From: a virus
IMG/VR virus record: IMGVR_UViG_3300045988_143938
Strand: one strand, 5' to 3'
Length of the DNA stretch: 64,000 nt
The position numbers and the translations under genes are program-made. Positions within the stretch are counted from its first letter, which is position 1. Each line of letters starts with the position of its first letter. The notes beneath the pieces were generated by a model. The model saw nothing but the letters and a program-made list of their open reading frames with translations, was not told the origin of the DNA and searched no databases. Shown here in pieces: positions 36,005 to 59,049 of this stretch.

Positions 36005-36018
36005 TAGAAAATAGATGA
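36005..36018 (+). promoter_or_regulatory. TAGAAAATAGRTGA motif copy 4
   Basis: tagaaaatagatga, 7 nt upstream of plus-strand -7 box. Confidence 0.5.
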
Positions 36019-36025
36019 AAAATCG

Positions 36026-36033
36026 TATATTTG
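36026..36033 (+). promoter_or_regulatory. -7 box TATATTTG
   Basis: Upstream of the terminase leader. Confidence 0.45.
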
Positions 36034-36063
36034 CACTATATATTACTCATAGAGCTGTGAATC

Positions 36064-36110
36064 AAGCCGGAGTATGCAAAATCATATTGCATGCGACGGC
36101 TTATTTTTTT
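36064..36110 (+). terminator. leader hairpin plus T7 immediately before terL ATG
   Basis: AAGCCG...CGGCTT outer stem, ATGCAA/TTGCAT inner stem, then ATTTTTTT. Confidence 0.4.
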
Positions 36111-38801
36111 ATGGAATACGACGGAATTGTACATACAAAAAATGGAGAGGGCGTATTTACTTATGCGCACATGGAAAAGCTGCGTGAATATGGAAATCCG
36201 CTTAATATAATCGCCCAAAAAGGATGTCAAGAAAAGTTCCTTGCGTCTCCGGCAGATATTACTATATTTGGAGGAAACCGTGGTGGCGGAAAGGCGCTGA
36301 TATTCAATGAATTAGTGTGTACTCCGTTCGGATTTAGAAAAATCCAAGACATTAAAGCCGGCGACATAATCACTGGCCTTGACGGAGGAATGCAAAGGGT
36401 TGTTTACAACTCCTATCAGGGATTTAAAGAGTGTGTAAGACTTAAATTCGTTGACGGCTCTTATGCTGACTGCTGCATAGATCACTTATGGAATATCAAG
36501 CAATCTAACCATTGTTCAAAGAAAAGGGCTTTATATAACCTCCCCTTAGAGGATGAATGGCGGGTGTGGACTACTCAAATGATTATAGACCACATGGAAA
36601 AGCAGAAGGGGAAGAAGCAGCCGCGCCATTTATCTGTTCCGTTGTGCAAGCCAGTTCGATTCACCAAAGGGAAATACTTCAAGCCTAAATTCAGTCCGTA
36701 TCTGATTGGTGCGCTCATCGGGGACGGATGTATTGCCGATAGTGTAATCAGTAAAAACTGCTGTTATTTATTTAATCCTGACGAGGAAGTCATTGGCGAG
36801 TTCAAGAAATCAGTAGGGTATTCTTCTTGCGAGTTTGAGAAAGGCTGCTACCGCATGCGCATCAACGACAAAGAGCTTATCGCAGAGATTCAGAAATTGA
36901 ATATAACAGGGCGTGCGGCAGATAAACACGTTCCTGACATGTATTTATATGGGTCGCTGGAGGAAAGATGGGCGCTTGTTCAGGGCTTAATGGATACCGA
37001 CGGAACTATTGATGAAAGAGGGCACCTGTCTTATACTACAATAAGCAAACAGCTTGCGGAAGATGTAAAATTCCTTATCAACAGTTTGGGAGGATTGGCG
37101 ACGATTGGCAGAGGCACCGCGGGGTATAGAAATAGCAATGGAAAATTTATCCAATGTAATGACGCATACACTCTTTATATAAGAATCCCGGATGCCGAAA
37201 GGATGTTTCGCGTAAAAAGGAAAAAGGAAAGATGCAAACCTTATAATGGCGGAATAAGCATCAATGCGAGAAGAATTATAGGCTACGATATGATAGGGAA
37301 GAAGGAGTGTTGCTGTATTGCAGTAACCAATCCGGATAGTTTGTTTCTGACAAGGGATTTTATTGTCACCCATAATTCTTGGGCCTTGCTAATGGAGGTC
37401 TTGAAAGATATAAATAACCCGAATTTTGCTTCTGTAATCCTGAGAAACGAAAAAGAGGACTTGAGTAATATAGTAAACAAGTCTTATGAACTTTTCTCTC
37501 AATACGGAAAGTACAACCGCTCTATCTCGGACATGACTTGGAACTTCTATAACGGAGGTTTTTTAAAGTTTTCCTATTATGCGGATTCTTACGAAGACTT
37601 CGTAAAGCGTTTTCAGGGAAAAGAGTTTGCCTTTATCGGTATAGACGAAATCACTCACTCTGATTACCTGAAGTTCAAATACCTTATTACCAACAACCGT
37701 AATGCCTACGGTATAAGAAACCGTTTTTATGGCACATGTAACCCTGACCCGGATAGCTGGGTACGTAAATTCATAGACTGGTGGATTGATGAAAACGGTA
37801 ACCCTATTCCGGAGCGAGACGGGGTAATACGCTATTGCTTCATGGATGGCGACCGACCGGAAGATATTTACTGGGGGGATTCCGTAGACGAAGTTTATAA
37901 CCAATGCAGGCATATCATAGATCCGTTGCTTACGCCGGGTCTTATCAGTAAGGGTTACGACAAGTCGGCATTCGTGAAGACAGTCACATTCATAAAGGGA
38001 AAGCTTGAAGAGAACGTTGCTCTTATATCTTCCGACCCTAATTATTTAGCCAACCTGGCCCAGCAGGACGAAGAATCTCGCGCAAGGGACTTGGAAGGGA
38101 ACTGGAACTTTAAAGCTGCCGGGGATGATATTATCAAGATGGAACACATGGAGCGCTTCTTTAAAAATACCGCCCAATACGGAGACGAGAAGCGTAGGGT
38201 ATCATGCGATATTGCATACGAGGGAGGAGACAACCTTGTCTTGTGGCTGTGGATCGGGAACCATATCGAAGATGTATATGTGAGTAGGGATAATTCCAAG
38301 CGGACGGAAGAGTGTGTTGCCCATAAACTTAGAGAGTGGGGCGTGCTGGAAAAGGATTTTGTTTTTGACTTAAACGGCCCCGGCCAGGATTTTAAAGGGA
38401 AATTCCCCGATGCGGTCAGGTTTAATAATATGGCTGCTCCAATACCCGCGACAAAAGCGGATGAGAAATCAATCAAGTATGTGTACTCCTCTTTAAAATC
38501 ACAGTGTGCGGATATTCTTGTAAAAAAGATAAAGAACGAGGAGATATCCATAAATCCCGATTTGTTATCGCGCAAATTCTCCGGTAACGGATATTCCGGA
38601 GTAACCCTTTATAATATTCTTATGAAAGAGAGAAAGGCTATTCGGGACGCGGAAACAGACAAAGGGTTTGCCTTGATTAAAAAGGAAACTATGAAAAAAT
38701 ACGTCGGGCACTCTCCTGACTTTATAGAAGCGATGATTTACAGACAAATTTTTGATATAAAAAAACATAACACAAAACCAAAAGGATTATGGAGATTATA
38801 A
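36111..38801 (+). CDS. terL: terminase large subunit, interrupted by intein
   Basis: Walker A GGNRGGGK|S split by insert; Walker B FAFIGIDEITH. Track start 36015 lies upstream of the predicted -7 box, so ATG 36111 is preferred. Confidence 0.9.
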   Translation: MEYDGIVHTKNGEGVFTYAHMEKLREYGNPLNIIAQKGCQEKFLASPADITIFGGNRGGGKALIFNELVCTPFGFRKIQDIKAGDIITGLDGGMQRVVYNSYQGFKECVRLKFVDGSYADCCIDHLWNIKQSNHCSKKRALYNLPLEDEWRVWTTQMIIDHMEKQKGKKQPRHLSVPLCKPVRFTKGKYFKPKFSPYLIGALIGDGCIADSVISKNCCYLFNPDEEVIGEFKKSVGYSSCEFEKGCYRMRINDKELIAEIQKLNITGRAADKHVPDMYLYGSLEERWALVQGLMDTDGTIDERGHLSYTTISKQLAEDVKFLINSLGGLATIGRGTAGYRNSNGKFIQCNDAYTLYIRIPDAERMFRVKRKKERCKPYNGGISINARRIIGYDMIGKKECCCIAVTNPDSLFLTRDFIVTHNSWALLMEVLKDINNPNFASVILRNEKEDLSNIVNKSYELFSQYGKYNRSISDMTWNFYNGGFLKFSYYADSYEDFVKRFQGKEFAFIGIDEITHSDYLKFKYLITNNRNAYGIRNRFYGTCNPDPDSWVRKFIDWWIDENGNPIPERDGVIRYCFMDGDRPEDIYWGDSVDEVYNQCRHIIDPLLTPGLISKGYDKSAFVKTVTFIKGKLEENVALISSDPNYLANLAQQDEESRARDLEGNWNFKAAGDDIIKMEHMERFFKNTAQYGDEKRRVSCDIAYEGGDNLVLWLWIGNHIEDVYVSRDNSKRTEECVAHKLREWGVLEKDFVFDLNGPGQDFKGKFPDAVRFNNMAAPIPATKADEKSIKYVYSSLKSQCADILVKKIKNEEISINPDLLSRKFSGNGYSGVTLYNILMKERKAIRDAETDKGFALIKKETMKKYVGHSPDFIEAMIYRQIFDIKKHNTKPKGLWRL
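36294..37376 (+). mobile_element. 361-aa intein with LAGLIDADG homing endonuclease, class 3 hallmarks
   Basis: Starts Ala after GGGK, ends IVTHN|S; DHLW (block B Trp), ECCCIAV (block F Cys), THN (block G Thr); LIGALIGDG and LVQGLMDTDG motifs. Confidence 0.8.
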
Positions 38802-42136: not shown

Positions 42137-43744
42137 CTATTCTTCAACAAAATCATCACTCAGGAAATCATCATCCGAATATTCCCAGCCCTCAAACAGG
42201 TTCGTTTTCGCTTCTTCGGCAATGTTGGGTACATGTCTCATAAAATTGTTCGCGATGTCCTCGTTCCCACACCACAGATTATAAGAGTTGTTGTATCCCT
42301 TTTCCCTCACGTATCCGAGAGAAAGCATGTCGATACCCAGCTTTCTTTGCGACATAGGGACGATCCCGTTCTTCTTGCAGAATCGTTCATAGTTCTTGTA
42401 TATCTCCGATGATGTGAAATTGATAACGCCGCTTCCTTCAAATTCTTCGGGCTGGCACTCCTTGTATTTGAGGTATTCCGATATACTTCCGTCCACAAGC
42501 TTTCCGTCCCGTCCTATGACCGTAGAGCGTATCCTCTCCAGCTTCATATCTATCTTTCCTCCGAGATTCTCCGGCATCCTCCAGTTGTTTTTCTTTAGCT
42601 CGCAAAGACCTTTGACTATCCAAGCCATTATGCCGGCATGTTCCGATTTGAGCCTTTCCGCGAGCATGGTATCCCTTTTCTCTACGGGGATAGTCTTGTC
42701 GAAATTAAGTACGAGCGCCCGTCTCTGCATACTCTCATCATCCGGGTCCTCCCGGTTAAGAAAGTCCTTTGGCTGCCAACGGTAGTTAGAGTTACACAGC
42801 ATGATAGGCGGTCTTTGCATCATCGTTATATTGCCGCCTATTCCCCGGCAGGCAATAGGTTCCCCGCTGGAGATAGCCTTTATGATGCTCATATCCTTAA
42901 AATCCCCTCGGTTACTCTCCGTACAGTACATAAGCCTCTTCCCGGACATGGAATACGCAGCACGAAGCTGTTCATCACCTCTGCTGGCAAACTGGCTCAT
43001 CTTGATATTAAGTATCTCGTCCTCTCCGAACATATCCTTAAGCACCCGGTAGATAACACTCTTCCCGTTTGCTCCCGTACCTTGCAATATCAGGAAATAC
43101 TCAAAGCTTATATTACGTCTGTTGACAAGACAGGCTCCAAGAAACATCTGTAATATTCTCCGCTTGTGCTTCTCAGGAAGAACACCGTCCATATCATCCG
43201 TAGGCATCCAGTTCTCTCCGAGGAAACTTCTCCATATAGGACAGTTGAATATCTCCTTGCGGTCATACTTGAACGGATACATCTTCACACAATCAAAGCG
43301 GGGAGAGTGGGGATAGGTCTTTAACCGGTTCATGTCAACGACACAGTTAGTGAAGCACATAATACTAAGGTCGGGACGAAGCTCATGGTCCCGGATAACA
43401 TTGATTATACGGTTCATATAGGCATACATGGCCTTATTGGTACGGTCACGAGCTGCAACACCCATCTTCTCAAGCCACCTGTCTACGGCATCATACAGGA
43501 CATTGTAATCCATGAACTCATATATCTTACCCGTAAAAACATACAAGGAGCTATAATGAGAGGTGTTATCCCTCGTCAAAACACCATAACCCTCCCTGAA
43601 TAACTCCTCAAGGCGTCTGCCGTATCTGTCTGTGCGCTCAGGATTGCTTGTAACCAAAGATATATCCCTGAACGTAGCCGCATATTCATCGCAATGTTCG
43701 GATAATAATCCAAGTACGTAATCCTTTAAATCCTTCCTATCCAT
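42137..43744 (-). CDS. D5/P4-family primase-helicase (NTPase domain)
   Basis: Walker A ILQGTGANGKSV; LQMFLGACL D5_N-like segment; 535 aa. Confidence 0.8.
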   Translation of the reverse strand: MDRKDLKDYVLGLLSEHCDEYAATFRDISLVTSNPERTDRYGRRLEELFREGYGVLTRDNTSHYSSLYVFTGKIYEFMDYNVLYDAVDRWLEKMGVAARDRTNKAMYAYMNRIINVIRDHELRPDLSIMCFTNCVVDMNRLKTYPHSPRFDCVKMYPFKYDRKEIFNCPIWRSFLGENWMPTDDMDGVLPEKHKRRILQMFLGACLVNRRNISFEYFLILQGTGANGKSVIYRVLKDMFGEDEILNIKMSQFASRGDEQLRAAYSMSGKRLMYCTESNRGDFKDMSIIKAISSGEPIACRGIGGNITMMQRPPIMLCNSNYRWQPKDFLNREDPDDESMQRRALVLNFDKTIPVEKRDTMLAERLKSEHAGIMAWIVKGLCELKKNNWRMPENLGGKIDMKLERIRSTVIGRDGKLVDGSISEYLKYKECQPEEFEGSGVINFTSSEIYKNYERFCKKNGIVPMSQRKLGIDMLSLGYVREKGYNNSYNLWCGNEDIANNFMRHVPNIAEEAKTNLFEGWEYSDDDFLSDDFVEE

Positions 43745-46426: not shown

Positions 46427-46567
46427 ATGTATTTAGGCTTTATACTTTGGGCGATAATTTTAGTTGTGATCGTGTGGAATACTAACCCGGCACTAGTTAT
46501 TATATCCGTAGTGATAGGGGTTGTGTTTGCGATTGCAAAAACAACAGATAATAAACCAAAAGAATGA
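46427..46567 (+). CDS. 46-aa two-TM peptide (below ORF-track cutoff)
   Basis: AAGGAGG 8 nt upstream; MYLGFILWAIILVVIVWNTNPALVIISVVIGVVFAIAKTTDNKPKE. Confidence 0.4.
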   Translation: MYLGFILWAIILVVIVWNTNPALVIISVVIGVVFAIAKTTDNKPKE

Positions 46568-46568
46568 C

Positions 46569-47411
46569 ATGGAAACATTGAAGGACGTTTTTTTGAAAAA
46601 ATACCCGCAATACGGAAAGGTGCTGCGGGTATATGAAGAGGTTAACGAAACGGAGTGCACCTTCGAGAGTATTACAAAACCAAGGTTGTACAACTTCGTT
46701 CAGGCTCTTAATGACAGGCTGGCAACAAACAGTGCTAAAACCTATTGCGCTATGTTTAAATCGGTTCTTAACCTGTACAGCGATATGTATTCTTTCCCGA
46801 AAGGCTTTGAAGCTATATTAACCCTGAAGAAGGACGCAACGCAAAGTACATGGTTAACGGATGAAGAAATTAAAAAACTACTCTCATACGATCCGGCTAA
46901 TGATACAGAACGGACAGTGAAAAACTGTTTTCTTCTCGGTTGTCTGACAGGTGCAAGACATTCGGACTACGTATGTTTTACAGAGGACAATATAATAGAC
47001 GGACGACTGGTCTATATTTCCCAAAAAACAAAAACGAAAGCGGAGATTCCAGCGGCTCCGGCTGTGTTACGGATATTAGAGGAAAACAAAAAGTACAACC
47101 TTAGCCAGCGGAAACTGTCTGATGTGACATTTAATGATACGATAAGAAGTATATGCCGGAAGTGTGGAATAAACCAACGAATAAAACTGTATCAGGCGGG
47201 CGAATATGCAACAGGGGAAAAGTGGGAGTTTATTTCCTCGCATTCAGCGCGGAAGTCTTGCGCAACCAACTTATATTTAAGGGGAGCGGATCTGTATTCT
47301 ATCAGCCGGATGTTAGGACACTCCAGTGTAACCATGACGGAAACGTATATTTGTTGCGGGCTGCGTGAATTGTCAGATAAGATAATAGGATATTTCAACG
47401 GGTTTAAATAA
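46569..47411 (+). CDS. tyrosine recombinase (second, short form)
   Basis: GARHSDY...HSARKSCATNL...LGHSSVTMTETY catalytic R-H-R-Y pattern. Confidence 0.85.
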   Translation: METLKDVFLKKYPQYGKVLRVYEEVNETECTFESITKPRLYNFVQALNDRLATNSAKTYCAMFKSVLNLYSDMYSFPKGFEAILTLKKDATQSTWLTDEEIKKLLSYDPANDTERTVKNCFLLGCLTGARHSDYVCFTEDNIIDGRLVYISQKTKTKAEIPAAPAVLRILEENKKYNLSQRKLSDVTFNDTIRSICRKCGINQRIKLYQAGEYATGEKWEFISSHSARKSCATNLYLRGADLYSISRMLGHSSVTMTETYICCGLRELSDKIIGYFNGFK

Positions 47412-48007: not shown

Positions 48008-49141
48008 TTACAATTTACTGTCCATCTTTTCAAATTCTTCTTGTACGGACTTGTTTAGCACTTTGGCGTAGATCTGTGTAGTTTTTATATCCGTATGTCC
48101 CATCATTTTTGCAAGGTTTTCAATCGAAACTCCCATATTCAATGCCATAACCGCAAAACTATGCCGGGCCATGTGCGAATGTAGGTTTTGTTTTATCCTC
48201 GCGAGCTCCTGAACGACTTTCAGTCTTAAATTATACTGATAGTTGCTTATTACGGGCAGTTTGAAATCGTATTTTTGCAGAATTTCCATTGCGGGCTTAA
48301 GAAGCATCAGGAAATACTCTTCTTCCGTTTTTACTCTTACGTCTCTTATAAAGAATTTGTTCCCTTTCTTGATTACACCGCTAAAATCAAAGTTGAACAA
48401 ATCTGCATAAGACAAACCCGTAAAACATTGGAATACGAACAAGTCTCTAACCCGTTCAATGCTCTCGGATGCCGTTTTTAAGCCTTGTATTTGCTTTATC
48501 TGTTCTAAGGTGAGGTATTTTATACCTTCGCTCTTTCCGCGCTCAAATTTGAGCTTATTATACGGGTTGTCTTTCAGCAAATCATATTTGATGGCTTCGT
48601 TTATATATCTTTTCAGGCGCTTATGATAACCATGTATTGTCGTCTGCTTGTTGTACTTCCCATGAAGGAAATTGTCATAGTGCATTATGTTAGCCGTAGT
48701 AACGTCCGTAAAGTAAACGATCCGACCGAACTCTTTCAGGGATGTTATTAAGGAGGCATGCGTATTTAACGTTCCTTGCCTGAGGTCGGTTCTTTCGCCC
48801 ACTCTCCGTTTTATAAAATCTATAAAGCTTTCTTTTGTTTGGGAATACTTTAAAAAGTGTTCCAGCTTATCAAAACTGAAAGGTTCTTTGTTTTTTACCA
48901 ACCCGTTTATGAACTCGTTGATGTTCCGCATTTGCGTATCAAGCCTTTCGTTGAGGTCTAAAGATTGAACGGTATTCTTAACCTTTGTTTTTTCGCTCCA
49001 TTGGTCGGAATACAACCGAACGCCTGTACTTAACCATTTTCTTTTCCGTTCAAACAAAATTTCTATTTGAACGGTTCCTTTCGTTGTCTTGCTTGCCGTA
49101 TGTTTACGGTCAAAAACAAACCTTAATACTGGATACTTCAT
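48008..49141 (-). CDS. int: phage integrase (tyrosine recombinase)
   Basis: 377 aa; HMARHSFAVMAL...MGHTDIKTTQIYAKV; N-terminal arm-binding/SAM-like region. Confidence 0.9.
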   Translation of the reverse strand: MKYPVLRFVFDRKHTASKTTKGTVQIEILFERKRKWLSTGVRLYSDQWSEKTKVKNTVQSLDLNERLDTQMRNINEFINGLVKNKEPFSFDKLEHFLKYSQTKESFIDFIKRRVGERTDLRQGTLNTHASLITSLKEFGRIVYFTDVTTANIMHYDNFLHGKYNKQTTIHGYHKRLKRYINEAIKYDLLKDNPYNKLKFERGKSEGIKYLTLEQIKQIQGLKTASESIERVRDLFVFQCFTGLSYADLFNFDFSGVIKKGNKFFIRDVRVKTEEEYFLMLLKPAMEILQKYDFKLPVISNYQYNLRLKVVQELARIKQNLHSHMARHSFAVMALNMGVSIENLAKMMGHTDIKTTQIYAKVLNKSVQEEFEKMDSKL

Positions 49142-49258: not shown

Positions 49259-49468
49259 TCATTGATTATTACGTAAAACGCTGATAATAAACAAAAAGGG
49301 ACTACGTTTTTGTAATCCCTTGCTGTGATCCGCAAGAAATGTGCAAACTTTAGTATCTTTAAATAATTTATACGACAAAGGGTCTATTTCATTTTTGTCA
49401 ATATAATCTCCATTTATCATTCTTTTTAAGAGAATTTCCGTATTACTGTATTTTTCATAGTTTTCCAT
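49259..49468 (-). CDS. hypothetical 69-aa protein
   Basis: Internal ATG (MENYEKY...) preferred; the upstream part of the track ORF is low-complexity. Confidence 0.4.
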   Translation of the reverse strand: MENYEKYSNTEILLKRMINGDYIDKNEIDPLSYKLFKDTKVCTFLADHSKGLQKRSPFLFIISVLRNNQ

Positions 49469-49703: not shown

Positions 49704-49910
49704 ATGAAAGTAACGAGAGAAGAAATTTTAAAGATTAAGCCGGGAAGTTCACTTACAGTGTATATGCCCGATTATAGAGCTTGTGATTCAGTAAGAGCCA
49801 CCGCGTATAGAACCGCATTAGCAGACCCGAGACCGGACGTAGAGAGATATAGGGTATCTATTGATACTAAAAAATGGAAAGTAACAATTACAGCAATAAA
49901 AAGATCATGA
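49704..49910 (+). CDS. hypothetical protein
   Basis: ORF track, 68 aa. Confidence 0.55.
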   Translation: MKVTREEILKIKPGSSLTVYMPDYRACDSVRATAYRTALADPRPDVERYRVSIDTKKWKVTITAIKRS

Positions 49911-50155
49911 ACCGCACAGAAGCAAGAATAGTAGCAGAAGAACTGTATAAGCTTATGCGCAAAGACGTGAAAAGGCTTGTGGAGGAGACAATAATTGAAT
50001 GTTCCGATGAATGGATTGGAGTAGGAGAGGCTGCAAATATTCTTGGATGCTCTGTTGGTACCTTGTATAACAATATAGACAGTATCCCACATACTAAAAA
50101 CGGGAGATTGCTCCGATTTAGAAAAGCGTCATTGATTAAATATTTAGAAAGATGA
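49907..50155 (+). CDS. xis: excisionase-family HTH protein
   Basis: WIGVGEAANILGCSVGTLYNNIDSIPHTKNGRLLRFRKASLIKYLE (MerR/Xis-type HTH); ATGA overlap; ATG 49874 is an alternative start. Confidence 0.6.
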   Translation: MNRTEARIVAEELYKLMRKDVKRLVEETIIECSDEWIGVGEAANILGCSVGTLYNNIDSIPHTKNGRLLRFRKASLIKYLER

Positions 50156-50388
50156 GAAGCTTCAATTTGAATAAAATCACAAGTCTTGGACTGCGAATAG
50201 CATTGATTATGGTTGTTATGGCAGGATGTGTATATGGTGGCCGCGTAGAGTATAATGATGATGTATTATCCGGTATAAGCTCTGAAAAATACGACTTTAT
50301 CAGCAGCAGGATAAGCGATAATTCAAGATCGGCAGTCGTAAATGAATACATGAAAAACAAACGGTACTACGACAGTATTGAATTTTAA
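50152..50388 (+). CDS. hypothetical protein
   Basis: ORF track, ATGA overlap with xis-like gene. Confidence 0.5.
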   Translation: MRSFNLNKITSLGLRIALIMVVMAGCVYGGRVEYNDDVLSGISSEKYDFISSRISDNSRSAVVNEYMKNKRYYDSIEF

Positions 50389-50414
50389 AAACCGCGTTGT
50401 GTGAATAACGCTCC

Positions 50415-50527
50415 TTCCTCTTAGCTCAACGGTTAGAGCATCGCTAAGGTTATTTGTTCGTAAGGGTTTAGCGTTTCCGGTCTGTTCCGGTTAGCGATTG
50501 TTGCACGTTCGATTCGTGCAGAGGAAG
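50415..50527 (+). ncRNA. tRNA-like gene with 43-47 nt insertion in place of the anticodon loop
   Basis: Acceptor TTCCTCT/AGAGGAA; D arm GCTC-AACGGTTA-GAGC; T arm GCACG-TTCGATT-CGTGC; anticodon-type stem TCGCT(AA)/(TT)AGCGA enclosing 50446-50492. Confidence 0.6.
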
Positions 50528-50905
50528 CAAGATACACCGTTCTTTGACGTATTGAATGTGAAACAAAGTTTGAATATCTGATATTCGGATTTGTTTCAAT
50601 ATAACTAAGGATTACGTATAGCGGAAACGCCGAAACTACGTATAGGCTTGGTTATCGTGATTGTTTCTCGCACCGAAATGTCCTACGGTAGAGAAGTATG
50701 CGGTTTGGGCGCCCGTATCGCGAGAAACAACAGGTCATAAAGACAATATAAGCGTCCGATACAGTCTTAAATCGGTATAAAGTATGCGGTGGTAATGAAA
50801 GGCGGCCGTACACGCTTATTATATATATTCTCGTGGCTCACCATAAGGCGAGTGGTAAGGCTTAACATCGGAACGCTCACGAGAACAATTACTAATCACT
50901 AATTT
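50528..50905 (+). ncRNA. ORF-free region of consecutive long hairpins (candidate large structured RNA)
   Basis: Stems 50559-67/50590-98; 50613-18/50637-42 with GCG-GAAA-CGC cap; 50661-71/50720-30; 50748-55/50812-19; 50828-35/50878-85. Confidence 0.45.
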
Positions 50906-51943: not shown

Positions 51944-52016
51944 ATATTTGTTTAGGTTGCCGGGCGGTCTGAGAAGATAGTCCGGTTTTTAGTTGGAAAT
52001 CATCAATAACAATTAT

Positions 52017-53033
52017 ATGAAAACATTTGAAGAATTAAAAGAAGAACTATTGAACCGGGCAAAAAACGCAAATGCCTGCCAAAACGGTTACAAAATGGGA
52101 CTTGATGCTAAAAATAAGGCTGATCTATTAAAAGCCATCACCGCTAACTGGTTTTGGGTATTAATAGATGCAAGGATAGTTGATGCAATATATCTCGAAG
52201 AAAATTTTACTGAGGAAGAACTTTCGGAAGCTGGTATCTATACACGAAAATGCCATGAGGTAAGAGCTGTGTCTTTTGCCTGCGGCAGTGCAACGGTGAA
52301 AGCCTGCGGCAGTGCAACGGTGAAAGCCTGCGACAGTGCAACGGTGAGAGCCTGCGGCAGTGCAACGGTGGAAGCCTGCGACAGTGCAACGGTGAGAGCC
52401 TGCGGCAGTGCAACGGTGGAAGCCTACGACAGTGCAACGGTGAGAGCCTACGGCAGTGCAACGGTGGAAGCCTACGGCAGTGCAACGGTGAGAGCCTACG
52501 GCAGTGCAACGGTGGAAGCCTACGGCAGTGCAACGGTGGAAGCCTACGACAGTGCAACGGTGAGAGCCTACGGCAGTGCAACGGTGGAAGCCTACGGCAG
52601 TGCAACGGTGGAAGCCTACGGCAGTGCAACGGTGAAAGCCTGCGACAGTGCAACGGTGAGAGCCTGCGGCAGTGCAACGGTGGAAGCCTACGACAGTGCA
52701 ACGGTGGAAGCCTACGGCAGTGCAACGGTGGAAGCCTACGGCAGTGCAACGGTGAAAGCCTGCGACAGTGCAACGGTGAGAGCCTACGGCAGTGCAACGG
52801 TGGAAGCCTACGACAGTGCAACGGTGAGAGCCTACGGCAGTGCAACGGTGAAAGCCTGCGACAGTGCAACGGTGAGAGCCTACGGCAGTGCAACGGTGAG
52901 AGCCTGCGACGAATCCTATGTAGAAGACTGTACGGGTAATATTAGACCGAGATATGATTACGCAATAGTCAAAGATTACCATAACCATAAGATATATATC
53001 AGAAAAGGAAAATTTGAGATAATAGAGGTTTGA
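52017..53033 (+). CDS. octapeptide-repeat (beta-solenoid-like) protein
   Basis: Helical N-domain then 26 copies of (C/Y)(G/D)SATV(K/R/E)A. Confidence 0.75.
   Translation: MKTFEELKEELLNRAKNANACQNGYKMGLDAKNKADLLKAITANWFWVLIDARIVDAIYLEENFTEEELSEAGIYTRKCHEVRAVSFACGSATVKACGSATVKACDSATVRACGSATVEACDSATVRACGSATVEAYDSATVRAYGSATVEAYGSATVRAYGSATVEAYGSATVEAYDSATVRAYGSATVEAYGSATVEAYGSATVKACDSATVRACGSATVEAYDSATVEAYGSATVEAYGSATVKACDSATVRAYGSATVEAYDSATVRAYGSATVKACDSATVRAYGSATVRACDESYVEDCTGNIRPRYDYAIVKDYHNHKIYIRKGKFEIIEV
52278..52901 (+). repeat. 26 x 24-nt perfect-register tandem repeat (coding)
   Basis: GCC T[G/A]C G[G/A]C AGT GCA ACG GTG [A/G][A/G]A; all other positions invariant. Confidence 0.95.
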
Positions 53034-58767: not shown

Positions 58768-58905
58768 ACCAAAAGCCCTCTACTGATGTAGAAGTTCTGT
58801 GAAAGGTTCAGGTTAAGATTTAATCAGCTAACAAATTAACTATCCCGGTGTGGTTTGACCGCCTATCCGGGAACAAGGGCCTGTGAAGATTGGGCAGGTG
58901 AATAT

Positions 58906-59049
58906 GGAGAAGTGGTGTAATTGGTAGGCACGCCGTGGGTAGCGCGGTGAGTGTAATAGAAATAGGAAGTTGGTGCTTTTCCACCTTAGCAGTCATGCTA
59001 TAGTAACAAGCCGAATAAACTCGTCCCGGTTCGAGCCCGGGCTTCTCCT
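58906..59049 (+). ncRNA. tRNA-like gene with ~77 nt insertion at the variable-arm position
   Basis: Acceptor GGAGAAG/CTTCTCC; D arm GTGT-AATTGGTAG-GCAC; hairpin CCGTG-GGTAG-CGCGG; T arm CCCGG-TTCGAGC-CCGGG. Confidence 0.55.

What the first reader, a model, noticed from the sequence alone, without database searches (positions are those of the whole stretch)
50415..50527. tRNA-like gene beside int/xis with canonical acceptor, D and T arms but no anticodon loop
Seen in the sequence:
- 7-bp acceptor stem (50415-21 TTCCTCT / 50520-26 AGAGGAA).
- D arm GCTC-AACGGTTA-GAGC.
- 5-nt variable loop.
- T arm GCACG-TTCGATT-CGTGC.
- Discriminator G, with no encoded CCA.

The stem at the anticodon position (TCGCT(AA) 50441-47 / (TT)AGCGA 50491-97) encloses 43-47 nt instead of 7. 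That insert holds a CCGG/CCGG hairpin with loop TCTGTT. It also holds a duplicated TTAGCG (50468-73 and 50491-96), so the 5' strand has two possible partners. I could not draw any 5-bp/7-nt anticodon arm.

The insert is far too short for a group I intron. Short protein-spliced tRNA introns are not established for Bacteroidota or their phages.

Inferred possibilities:
(i) A tRNA with a novel short intervening sequence.
(ii) A tRNA mimic or decoy, for example against anticodon nucleases.
(iii) An attP core that carries both halves of a host tRNA. The locus is about 250 nt downstream of the xis-like gene.
Basis: partly seen in the sequence, partly recalled or inferred. Interest (0 to 1): 0.75.

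Follow-up and report, generated by a model that had tools for sequence, protein, structure and literature searches.

The report
Interrupted tRNA gene in gut phage
A temperate gut-bacteria (Bacteroidota) phage carries a conserved tRNA gene whose anticodon arm is split by a 38-base insert that pairs with and hides the anticodon. Bacteria have no known way to remove such a short insert, so this is an unexplained tRNA variant and not an integration-site remnant.

Summary
The tRNA-like arms are real at 50415-50527. My arm scan found 2 such elements in the window and 0 in 100 random windows.

If 50447-50484 (38 nt) is taken out, CGCTA / TTCCGGT / TAGCG forms a normal arm with anticodon CCG (ARAGORN with its intron option).

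It is not attP. Prophage junctions for the window's integrase map to 49312-49333, at the 3' end of a host tRNA-Lys. A second integrase type found beside the same element has its own tRNA-fragment attP.

I found 97 copies in four diverged types (66-93% identical) in gut viral and metagenome contigs.
- All copies carry a 34-43-nt insert at the same junction; no uninterrupted copy turned up.
- The loop TTCCGGT never varies.
- Compensatory changes keep acceptor pair 2-71, anticodon-stem pair 31-39 and tertiary pair 15-48.
- In all four types the insert is predicted to pair with the anticodon.

So this is a selected, interrupted tRNA-type gene on the + strand. Whether the insert is spliced out or the RNA works unspliced is unresolved: no splicing enzyme, ribozyme or group I fold was found. 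The closest precedent is the unexplained short tRNA introns of Lak megaphages.

The parts
50387..50414 (+). Conserved leader just upstream (AAACCGCGTTGTGTGAATAACGCTCC). It contains the hairpin GCGTT-N8-AACGC. Its left edge is a mosaic breakpoint.
   Evidence: BLAST of related loci breaks at 50387. The leader is shared by types W, B and D but not C.
50415..50421 (+). Acceptor stem, 5' strand (TTCCTCT, positions 1-7).
   Evidence: Pair 2-71 varies as U-A / U.G / C-G between types.
50424..50439 (+). D arm GCTC-AACGGTTA-GAGC, with A14, A15, G18, G19 and A21. Position 20 is U, not the A20 typical of tRNA-Arg.
   Evidence: A15-U48 changes to G15-C48 in types B, C and D.
50441..50446 (+). Anticodon stem, 5' strand (TCGCT, positions 27-31, plus one extra A).
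   Evidence: Pair 31-39 is U-A in W, B and D and C-G in C.
50447..50484 (+). Intervening sequence, 38 nt (AGGTTATTTGTTCGTAAGGGTTTAGCGTTTCCGGTCTG). Conserved blocks are GGTT, TTCG, GTTTAG and CCGG.
   Evidence: ARAGORN with intron option. It is 34-43 nt in the other types and 66-84% identical between types. It is present in all 97 copies.
50477..50480 (+). CCGG inside the insert, complementary to anticodon CCG plus G37. It forms the masking hairpin with 50487-50490.
   Evidence: Fold predictions. CCGG is invariant in all four types.
50485..50491 (+). Anticodon loop TTCCGGT: U33, anticodon CCG at 50487-50489, G37.
   Evidence: Invariant in 97 copies and 4 types.
50492..50497 (+). Anticodon stem, 3' strand (one extra T plus AGCGA, positions 39-43).
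50498..50502 (+). Variable loop TTGTT (G46, U48).
   Evidence: It is AGGTC in types B, C and D, covarying with position 15.
50503..50519 (+). T arm GCACG-TTCGATT-CGTGC.
   Evidence: Only loop positions 57, 59 and 60 vary between types.
50520..50527 (+). Acceptor stem, 3' strand AGAGGAA, plus discriminator G. No encoded CCA.

Best explanation
Window 50415-50527 is a phage tRNA-type gene kept by selection, read from the + strand, with anticodon loop UUCCGGU (CCG, arginine by the standard code). A 38-nt intervening sequence splits it, sitting exactly between the 5' strand of the anticodon stem and the loop.

Shown here:
- The cloverleaf body.
- The fixed position of the insert.
- The invariant loop.
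- Compensatory changes across four diverged types.
- Independence from both integrases.

Inferred from what is known of RNase P, RNase Z and the CCA-adding enzyme, which need only the acceptor/T-arm and elbow: the RNA is co-transcribed with the rightward xis/early genes, cut out as a ~113-nt tRNA-shaped precursor, and given CCA.

Predicted by folding: in this precursor the insert pairs with the anticodon (CCGG with CCG+G37), so it cannot decode.

The least certain step, and my commitment: the insert is then removed by a not-yet-identified endonuclease and an RNA ligase, most likely host enzymes. This would give a ~75-nt tRNA that reads CGG, so the insert would act as an anticodon-masking intron.
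For: - ARAGORN with its intron option calls tRNA-Arg(CCG) in all four types, with the insert at the same junction.
- For type C, removing the insert gives a fully canonical 75-nt cloverleaf: 5-bp stem, 7-nt loop, 5-nt variable loop.
- TTCCGGT is invariant in 97 copies (21 distinct sequences), while the insert bases just before it vary.
- 98.1% of stem cells are paired. Both-sided changes occur at 2-71, 31-39 and 15-48. 0 of 500 shuffles reach the observed score, and slid controls score 0.083 or less against 0.177.
- G.U intermediates fit an RNA read from the + strand.
- The exon parts (75-93% identical between types) are more conserved than the insert (66-84%). The neighbouring stretch 50549-50693 does not align between types W and C.
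- No uninterrupted copy exists in IMG/VR or in JGI metagenomes.
- Unrelated phage contigs hold other tRNA genes with short inserts in the anticodon arm.
- The Lak megaphage paper reports the same kind of thing (PMC6784885).
Against: - No mechanism is known. The insert is far too short for a group I intron, and there is no Rfam hit.
- I saw no bulge-helix-bulge motif, and the 31/32 position is non-canonical.
- None of the 30 window ORFs I tested has a Pfam splicing endonuclease or RNA ligase domain.
- There is no HDV-like ribozyme 3' of the gene.
- In types W and D the spliced stem would be 6 bp, not 5.
- A20 (an ArgRS identity element in E. coli, from my own knowledge) is absent. U1-A72 with G73 is unusual for tRNA-Arg.
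- CGG is not enriched overall: 9% of Arg codons in both the phage and the host sample. The phage's excess is in AGA/AGG.
- The insert itself is conserved, which would also fit a functional unspliced domain.
- Only four lineages are available, so the covariation statistics are thin.
Confidence: 0.45

Rival explanations
1. A non-decoding tRNA-like RNA that works unspliced. RNase P and RNase Z cut it out as a stable ~113-nt L-shaped RNA whose enlarged, anticodon-masked arm is the functional part. It could be a decoy or binding partner for tRNA-directed enzymes or nucleases, or simply a processing signal that cuts the early transcript.
For: - The insert is conserved in blocks (66-84% identity) while nearby intergenic DNA does not align.
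- Stem length differs between types (5 or 6 bp), which a decoder should not tolerate easily.
- A20 is absent.
- There is no codon-usage need for it, and no splicing machinery was found.
- The same phage has a second tRNA-like element at 58906-59049 whose interior cannot be made into a tRNA.
Against: - Strict invariance of a canonical 7-nt loop with U33 and a purine at 37, next to variable insert bases, is most simply explained by decoding or synthetase recognition.
- A decoy for anticodon nucleases would be expected to display the loop, not hide it.
- No antisense target was found: the longest complement is 11 nt, the median for shuffled sequences.
Confidence: 0.35
2. An inactivated tRNA pseudogene that persists only because it sits in a recently spread, conserved regulatory block.
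For: - Within type W, diversity of the element (pi 0.011) is no lower than that of the noncoding block downstream (0.009-0.026 outside the inverted hairpin).
- The function is unknown.
Against: - Four types that differ by 7-25% in the exon parts keep every stem, through compensatory and wobble changes.
- They also keep the loop and the insert position.
- Flanks have been swapped around the element.
- Polymorphisms seen in two or more copies fall in loops or keep the pair as a wobble pair. The pair-breaking ones are singletons.
Confidence: 0.1
3. An attP core or att scar that carries both halves of a host tRNA.
For: - It lies 260 nt downstream of an excisionase-like HTH_17 gene and 1.3 kb from the integrase.
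- TTCCGGT occurs twice, 10 nt apart.
Against: - Host-phage junctions of this integrase lie at 49312-49333, in the 3' end of a host tRNA-Lys(UUU).
- The alternative integrase has its own attP.
- Real attP sites here carry only a 3' tRNA fragment.
- No reference genome contains either half.
- The divergence right after GCAAGATA in some relatives is a phage-internal mosaic joint, not a host junction.
Confidence: 0.02

Closest known systems
'Enigmatic' short introns in tRNA genes of Lak megaphages of Prevotella (Devoto et al. 2019, PMC6784885)
   Same: - Phage of a Bacteroidota host.
- An oversized tRNA gene with a short insert in the anticodon arm that is not a group I intron.
- The insert sequence is near-identical across samples.
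- Missed by bacterial-mode tRNA finders.
- No splicing mechanism is known.
   Different: - The one Lak example I read (tRNA-Tyr) has a 93-nt insert placed after position 36/37, as called in eukaryote mode. Here the insert is 34-43 nt and sits before the whole loop (31/32).
- This one is in ~60-70-kb temperate phages, not 540-kb megaphages.
- Here there is compensatory-change support and predicted pairing between insert and anticodon.
Archaeal and eukaryotic protein-spliced tRNA introns
   Same: A short intron in the anticodon arm that base-pairs with the anticodon. The mature body is intact.
   Different: - No bulge-helix-bulge motif could be drawn.
- The position is not 37/38.
- Bacteria are not known to have the splicing endonuclease (my own knowledge), and no such Pfam domain was found in the 30 window ORFs tested.
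Bacterial tRNA genes with group I introns (tRNA-Leu, fMet, Arg, Ile)
   Same: A bacterial-world tRNA gene interrupted in the anticodon loop.
   Different: Group I introns are about 200 nt or more with a conserved catalytic core (my own knowledge). This insert is 34-43 nt, and Rfam gives no match.
attP sites that carry the 3' part of a host tRNA
   Same: tRNA-derived sequence close to the integrase and excisionase genes of a temperate phage.
   Different: - Both true attP sites in this phage group were located, and each holds only a 3' fragment next to its integrase.
- This element is a complete, covarying tRNA body found with either integrase.
tRNA genes followed by theta (HDV-like) ribozymes in gut phages (Kienbeck et al. 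2024, PMC10879173)
   Same: Gut Bacteroidota phages, tRNA genes without encoded CCA, unconventional tRNA maturation.
   Different: No HDV-like fold could be drawn within 6 nt of the 3' end. The oddity here is inside the anticodon arm, not at the 3' end.

Membership tests
Standard bacterial tRNA gene | Uninterrupted cloverleaf with a 5-bp anticodon stem and a 7-nt loop, found by bacterial tRNA finders and Rfam RF00005 | tested here: not met
   Default ARAGORN finds 0 genes in the window. Rfam gives no hit at gathering score, nor at E<=10 on 50300-50700.
Standard bacterial tRNA gene | Acceptor, D and T arms with the conserved tertiary-contact nucleotides | tested here: met
   Read directly from the sequence. 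Own scan: 2 hits in the window against 0.0 in shuffles. Stems are 98.1% paired across 19 variants.
Intron-containing tRNA gene (any kind) | Removing one contiguous insert restores a normal anticodon arm, and relatives agree on the same insert position | tested here: met
   ARAGORN with intron option: CCG anticodon in types W, B, C and D, with the insert always directly after the 5' stem strand. Type C becomes fully canonical. W and D would have a 6-bp stem.
Intron-containing tRNA gene (any kind) | The insert is actually removed from the RNA | not testable with these tools
   Needs RNA data (small-RNA sequencing, northern blot, RT-PCR across the junction).
Group I intron in a tRNA | Intron of about 200 nt or more with the P1-P9 catalytic core | tested here: not met
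   The insert is 34-43 nt. No Rfam group I match.
Archaeal/eukaryotic-type tRNA intron | Bulge-helix-bulge motif at the splice sites, usually at position 37/38 | tested here: not met
   The insert lies at 31/32 (32/33 by ARAGORN's count). In the predicted folds the 3' boundary lies in a hairpin loop and the 5' boundary at the stem end. This was manual inspection only.
Archaeal/eukaryotic-type tRNA intron | A splicing endonuclease and an RNA ligase are available | tested here: inconclusive
   None among the 30 window ORFs scanned against Pfam. Many small ORFs and the host genome were not examined.
attP / att scar on a tRNA | The prophage-host junction maps inside the element | tested here: not met
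   The junction is at 49312-49333, next to host tRNA-Lys(UUU).
attP / att scar on a tRNA | Sequence identity with a host tRNA gene | tested here: not met
   The 3' 43-mer and the 5' 25-mer are absent from 185,579 species genomes. These were exact-match scans only.
Phage tRNAs with short unexplained introns (Lak type) | Phage-encoded, oversized tRNA gene with a short non-group-I insert in the anticodon arm, conserved across samples | tested here: met
   compared with PMC6784885. The insert position differs from the Lak example I read.
Known tRNA-like noncoding RNAs (tmRNA, YrlA and others in Rfam) | Match to the family's covariance model, or a tmRNA call | tested here: not met
   No Rfam match. 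ARAGORN in tmRNA mode finds none.

The most novel reading that the evidence does not exclude
Gut Bacteroidota or their temperate phages have an undescribed way to splice short inserts out of tRNAs, either protein-catalysed or RNA-assisted. This phage would use an anticodon-masking intron as a switch that controls the supply of a CGG-reading tRNA. The integrase and second recombinase genes are unusually rich in CGG (7 of 22 and 7 of 16 Arg codons, against about 9% elsewhere). Unmasking the tRNA could therefore gate their translation and influence the lysis-lysogeny decision.
Probability: 0.12. Interest if true: 0.9.

Novelty: new variant of a known kind. Interest (0 to 1): 0.66.

Why it matters
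Bacteria are thought to lack protein-catalysed tRNA splicing; their only accepted tRNA introns are large self-splicing group I introns (my own knowledge). Short inserts in phage tRNA genes were noted once, in Lak megaphages, and left unexplained.

What this case adds:
- The same oddity in common ~60-70-kb temperate phages of human-gut Bacteroidota.
- Evolutionary evidence that the interrupted gene is under selection: an invariant loop, compensatory stem changes and a fixed insert position.
- A predicted pairing between the insert and the anticodon.

It also gives a practical test system for a question left open since 2019. Lysogens of culturable gut bacteria could show whether these inserts are spliced and by what, or whether anticodon-masked tRNA look-alikes have a job of their own.

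A practical consequence: standard bacterial tRNA finders miss such genes, so phage tRNA inventories are probably incomplete.

Tried and rejected
- **attP hypothesis.** Rejected by the mapped junctions.
- **Copy of a host tRNA.** Exact scans of 185,579 genomes found nothing.
- **Uninterrupted ancestor or allele.** Four pattern scans of IMG/VR and JGI metagenomes all returned zero.
- **Known RNA family.** No Rfam hit at the curated thresholds or at E<=10.
- **Insert made by local tandem duplication of the tRNA's own sequence.**
  - Tandem Repeats Finder found nothing.
  - Similarity of the insert to the exon parts is no better than for shuffled sequence (p = 0.3-0.7).
- **Antisense regulator.** The longest complement in the window is 11 nt, the median for shuffles.
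- **Theta/HDV-like ribozyme 3' of the gene.** A permissive descriptor found none.
- **Phage-encoded splicing or repair enzymes.** None in the 30 window ORFs tested.
- **Codon supplementation.** CGG use is the same in the phage and the host sample; the phage's excess is in AGA/AGG.
- **Own promoter.** No Bacteroides-type TAnnTTTG motif nearby, and sigma-70-type hits are at chance level. This is weak negative evidence only.
- **Isotype by similarity.** The spliced type W best matches phage tRNA-Arg(UCU), and the spliced type C best matches phage tRNA-Pro. Both matches are weak, so I assign no isotype this way.
- **Within-type diversity test for selection.** No contrast with the flanks. Evidence of selection came only after diverged types were found.

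Full report
**1. The observation**

- a perfect 7-bp acceptor stem
- a 4-bp D stem with loop AACGGTTA
- a 5-nt variable loop
- a 5-bp T stem with loop TTCGATT
- discriminator G, with no encoded CCA
- an 8-bp stem ATCGCTAA/TTAGCGAT enclosing 43 nt

All nucleotides that build the tRNA elbow and core are canonical. Default ARAGORN and Rfam see nothing here.

My own scan looked for a T arm followed by a 7-bp acceptor and a D arm. It found exactly two elements in the window and none in 100 shuffled windows. The tRNA-like body is therefore real and not chance.

ARAGORN with its intron option takes out 50447-50484 (38 nt). That leaves stem CGCTA/TAGCG with loop TTCCGGT, which has U33, anticodon CCG and G37. 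On one sequence alone this is weak. About 32 different excisions are possible, and about 2 of them would give a canonical-looking loop by chance (my own estimate). The comparison with relatives in section 4 is what makes it convincing.

**2. Setting**

The window is a temperate phage genome. Pfam hits include:
- a large terminase carrying a LAGLIDADG domain, and a portal protein
- a YqaJ-type nuclease
- two antirepressor-like proteins
- a D5-type primase/helicase
- an integrase with an arm-binding domain at 48008-49141 (- strand)
- a second tyrosine recombinase at 46521-47411
- an excisionase-like HTH_17 protein at 49874-50155

. The element lies in a 532-nt noncoding gap, between a 78-aa ORF and the rightward early genes, on the same strand as those genes.

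**3. It is not attP**

I looked up contigs that encode exactly this integrase. Five were integrated forms. In them the integrase gene abuts a complete host tRNA-Lys(UUU) and host genes: an AI-2E transporter, thymidine kinase, MarC and a SusD-like protein. Aligned with the window, the phage-host junction falls at GCGGATCACAGCAAGGG…, which is window 49312-49333 on the - strand. That is about 1.1 kb from the element.

Many relatives carry the same element at more than 97% identity but have an integrase only 22% identical. That integrase has its own attP about 130 nt upstream of its start. It consists of the anticodon arm through the 3' end of a tRNA-Gly(CCC)-like gene.

So real attP sites in this phage group hold only a 3' tRNA fragment next to their integrase. 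The element keeps both halves and goes with either integrase. Neither the 3' 43-mer nor the 5' 25-mer occurs in 185,579 reference genomes. Some relatives diverge right after GCAAGATA (50535). They rejoin window homology at about 51938, so this is a phage-internal mosaic joint and not a host junction.

**4. Relatives**

Exact-pattern scans first gave 21 viral and 22 metagenome copies, nearly identical to the window and all with the same insert length.

Homologues of the excisionase-like protein then led to diverged versions at the same genomic position:
- type B: 82% identical to the window's element, 36-nt insert
- type C: 75% identical, 43-nt insert

A scan based on the insert sequence added an abundant type D with a 34-nt insert.

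In total there are 97 copies and 21 distinct sequences: type W (the window's type) 50, D 31, C 12 and B 4. ARAGORN with the intron option calls every type tRNA-Arg(CCG). In every type the insert sits directly after the 5' strand of the anticodon stem, with a 1-nt ambiguity in B and C.

- TTCCGGT is invariant, while the insert bases just before it differ (G, T, T, A).
- After the insert is removed, type C is a textbook 75-nt cloverleaf.
- Types W and D would have one extra A-U pair, giving a 6-bp stem.
- Type B has that extra pair but a C.A mismatch at 27-43.
- No uninterrupted copy of any type was found in IMG/VR or the JGI metagenomes.

**5. Evidence of selection**

I counted pairs on the alignment of 19 distinct sequences, using the cloverleaf with the anticodon stem drawn across the insert.
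- 98.1% of cells are paired.
- Three pairs change on both sides:
  - acceptor 2-71: U-A, U.G, C-G
  - anticodon stem 31-39: U-A, C-G
  - tertiary pair 15-48: A-U, G-C
- Several one-sided changes give G.U pairs.
- No shuffle out of 500 reached the observed score.
- Sliding the partners drops the score from 0.177 to 0.083 or less.

There are only four lineages, so this is qualitative support rather than a statistical proof. G.U intermediates point to an RNA read from the + strand.

Between types the exon parts are 75-93% identical and the insert 66-84%, with indels. The stretch 50549-50693 does not align at all between types W and C.

Within type W, polymorphisms seen in two or more copies lie in loops or keep a wobble pair. 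The two pair-breaking ones are singletons.

A decaying pseudogene would not behave like this.

**6. The insert**

Conserved blocks are GGTT, TTCG, GTTTAG and CCGG.
- In types W, B and D the predicted fold pairs the insert's CCGG with anticodon CCG plus G37, closing a 6-nt loop.
- In type C the start of the insert pairs with the same bases instead.

In all four types the anticodon is therefore predicted to be hidden. These folds are predictions, and neither CCGG copy varies, so there is no covariation to test the pairing.

The following found nothing:
- known RNA family
- tandem-duplication origin
- antisense target
- HDV-like ribozyme
- splicing or repair enzyme among 30 window ORFs

**7. What it does**

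Shown: a conserved, structured, tRNA-type RNA gene with a fixed insert and an invariant CCG loop.

Inferred: it is transcribed with the early operon and trimmed by RNase P and RNase Z, and CCA is added. Those enzymes need only the acceptor/T-arm and elbow (established knowledge).

Open: whether the insert is removed.

For removal:
- the canonical invariant loop
- the sharp conservation boundary at its 5' edge
- the fully canonical spliced form of type C
- pairing between intron and anticodon, as in other domains of life

Against removal:
- no known mechanism
- the 5-bp versus 6-bp stem difference between types
- no A20, and U1-A72 with G73, unlike usual tRNA-Arg (my own knowledge)
- no overall need for CGG
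- a conserved insert

My estimates are 0.45 for a spliced, decoding tRNA, 0.35 for a tRNA look-alike that works unspliced, 0.10 for a pseudogene and 0.02 for an att remnant.

**8. Comparison with what is known**

The closest precedent is the set of 'enigmatic' tRNA introns predicted in Lak megaphages of Prevotella (PMC6784885). The host phylum, the kind of oddity and the lack of a mechanism are the same. The insert position, insert length and phage type differ.

A pattern scan that kept this element's D arm and T loop but required an oversized gap also picked up unrelated phage tRNA genes with short inserts in or next to the anticodon loop: L035, L036/L043, L041, L045, L051 and L053. It also found tRNA-within-tRNA arrangements. 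The phenomenon is therefore recurrent and under-annotated.

I found no paper in the held library that explains it.

**9. Verdict**

The finding is real. The att-site reading is refuted and the 'short intervening sequence' reading is the best supported. The element is best filed as a new variant of intron-containing tRNA genes, in a setting where no splicing pathway is known. Interest is moderately high because the mechanism is open and can be tested in culturable gut bacteria.

Noticed in passing
window 58906-59049 (+): A second tRNA-like element: 7-bp acceptor GGAGAAG/CTTCTCC, a D arm, and T arm CCCGG-TTCGAGC-CCGGG, but about 90 nt between the D and T arms. ARAGORN gives two inconsistent anticodon calls (Cys or Ala), and a T>C change in relatives fits a local hairpin rather than either call. 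Some relatives replace 58889-59024 with a different ~195-nt sequence that lacks the D arm but keeps a similar T arm and the same 3' acceptor strand. No Rfam match.
   Followed up: partly
window 49312-49333 (-): True attP core of the window's integrase. It is identical to the 3' end of a host tRNA-Lys(UUU); integrated forms sit next to host AI-2E transporter, thymidine kinase, MarC and SusD-like genes.
   Followed up: yes
window 50556-50600: An imperfect-palindrome hairpin about 30 nt downstream of the tRNA gene. Its inner part is inverted in L019 and L021 and replaced by an unrelated hairpin in L048, so the structure is kept while the sequence changes. It is not followed by a T run.
   Followed up: partly
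window 50528-50830, especially 50694-50830: The noncoding block downstream of the gene folds unusually well as RNA (z = -3.3; 0 of 100 shuffles fold as well). The part 50694-50830, which holds two AAGTATGCGGT repeats, is 91% identical even in type C phages whose tRNA gene is only 75% identical. It could be an operator or iteron region, or another RNA.
   Followed up: partly
window 48008-49141, 46521-47411, 42137-43744: CGG codons are concentrated in the integrase (7 of 22 Arg codons), the second recombinase (7 of 16) and the primase/helicase (8 of 43). That is 22 of the 64 CGG codons counted, in 9% of the codons analysed. CGG is also frequent in the other reading frames of these genes, so this may be a composition effect rather than codon choice.
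   Followed up: partly
window 36015-38801 (+): The large terminase ORF (928 aa) contains a LAGLIDADG_3 domain ahead of the terminase domain, which suggests an intein or a homing-endonuclease insertion.
   Followed up: no
window 51993-53033 (+): A 346-aa ORF made almost entirely of tandem 8-residue repeats (GSATVEAY / DSATVRAC). The repeat number differs between related phages.
   Followed up: no
L035, L036/L043, L041, L045, L051, L053; also L034, L039, L050: Unrelated viral contigs hold tRNA genes with 12-48-nt inserts in or beside the anticodon loop. One example is L041, readable as tRNA-Gln(UUG) with a 48-nt insert at 37/38 (ARAGORN instead calls Lys(UUU) with the insert at 36). Others have a 5' tRNA fragment directly followed by a complete tRNA-Met.
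   Followed up: partly
L033, L037, L038, L040, L044, L049, L055, L056: Mostly large phage contigs (50-398 kb; five of the eight over 175 kb) carry a tRNA with anticodon UAU and a long variable arm of the kind seen in tRNA-Leu/Ser/Tyr. That is unusual for tRNA-Ile.
   Followed up: no
L001 7090-7170: attP of the alternative integrase type: the anticodon arm through the 3' end (with CCA) of a tRNA-Gly(CCC)-like gene, about 130 nt upstream of that integrase.
   Followed up: partly
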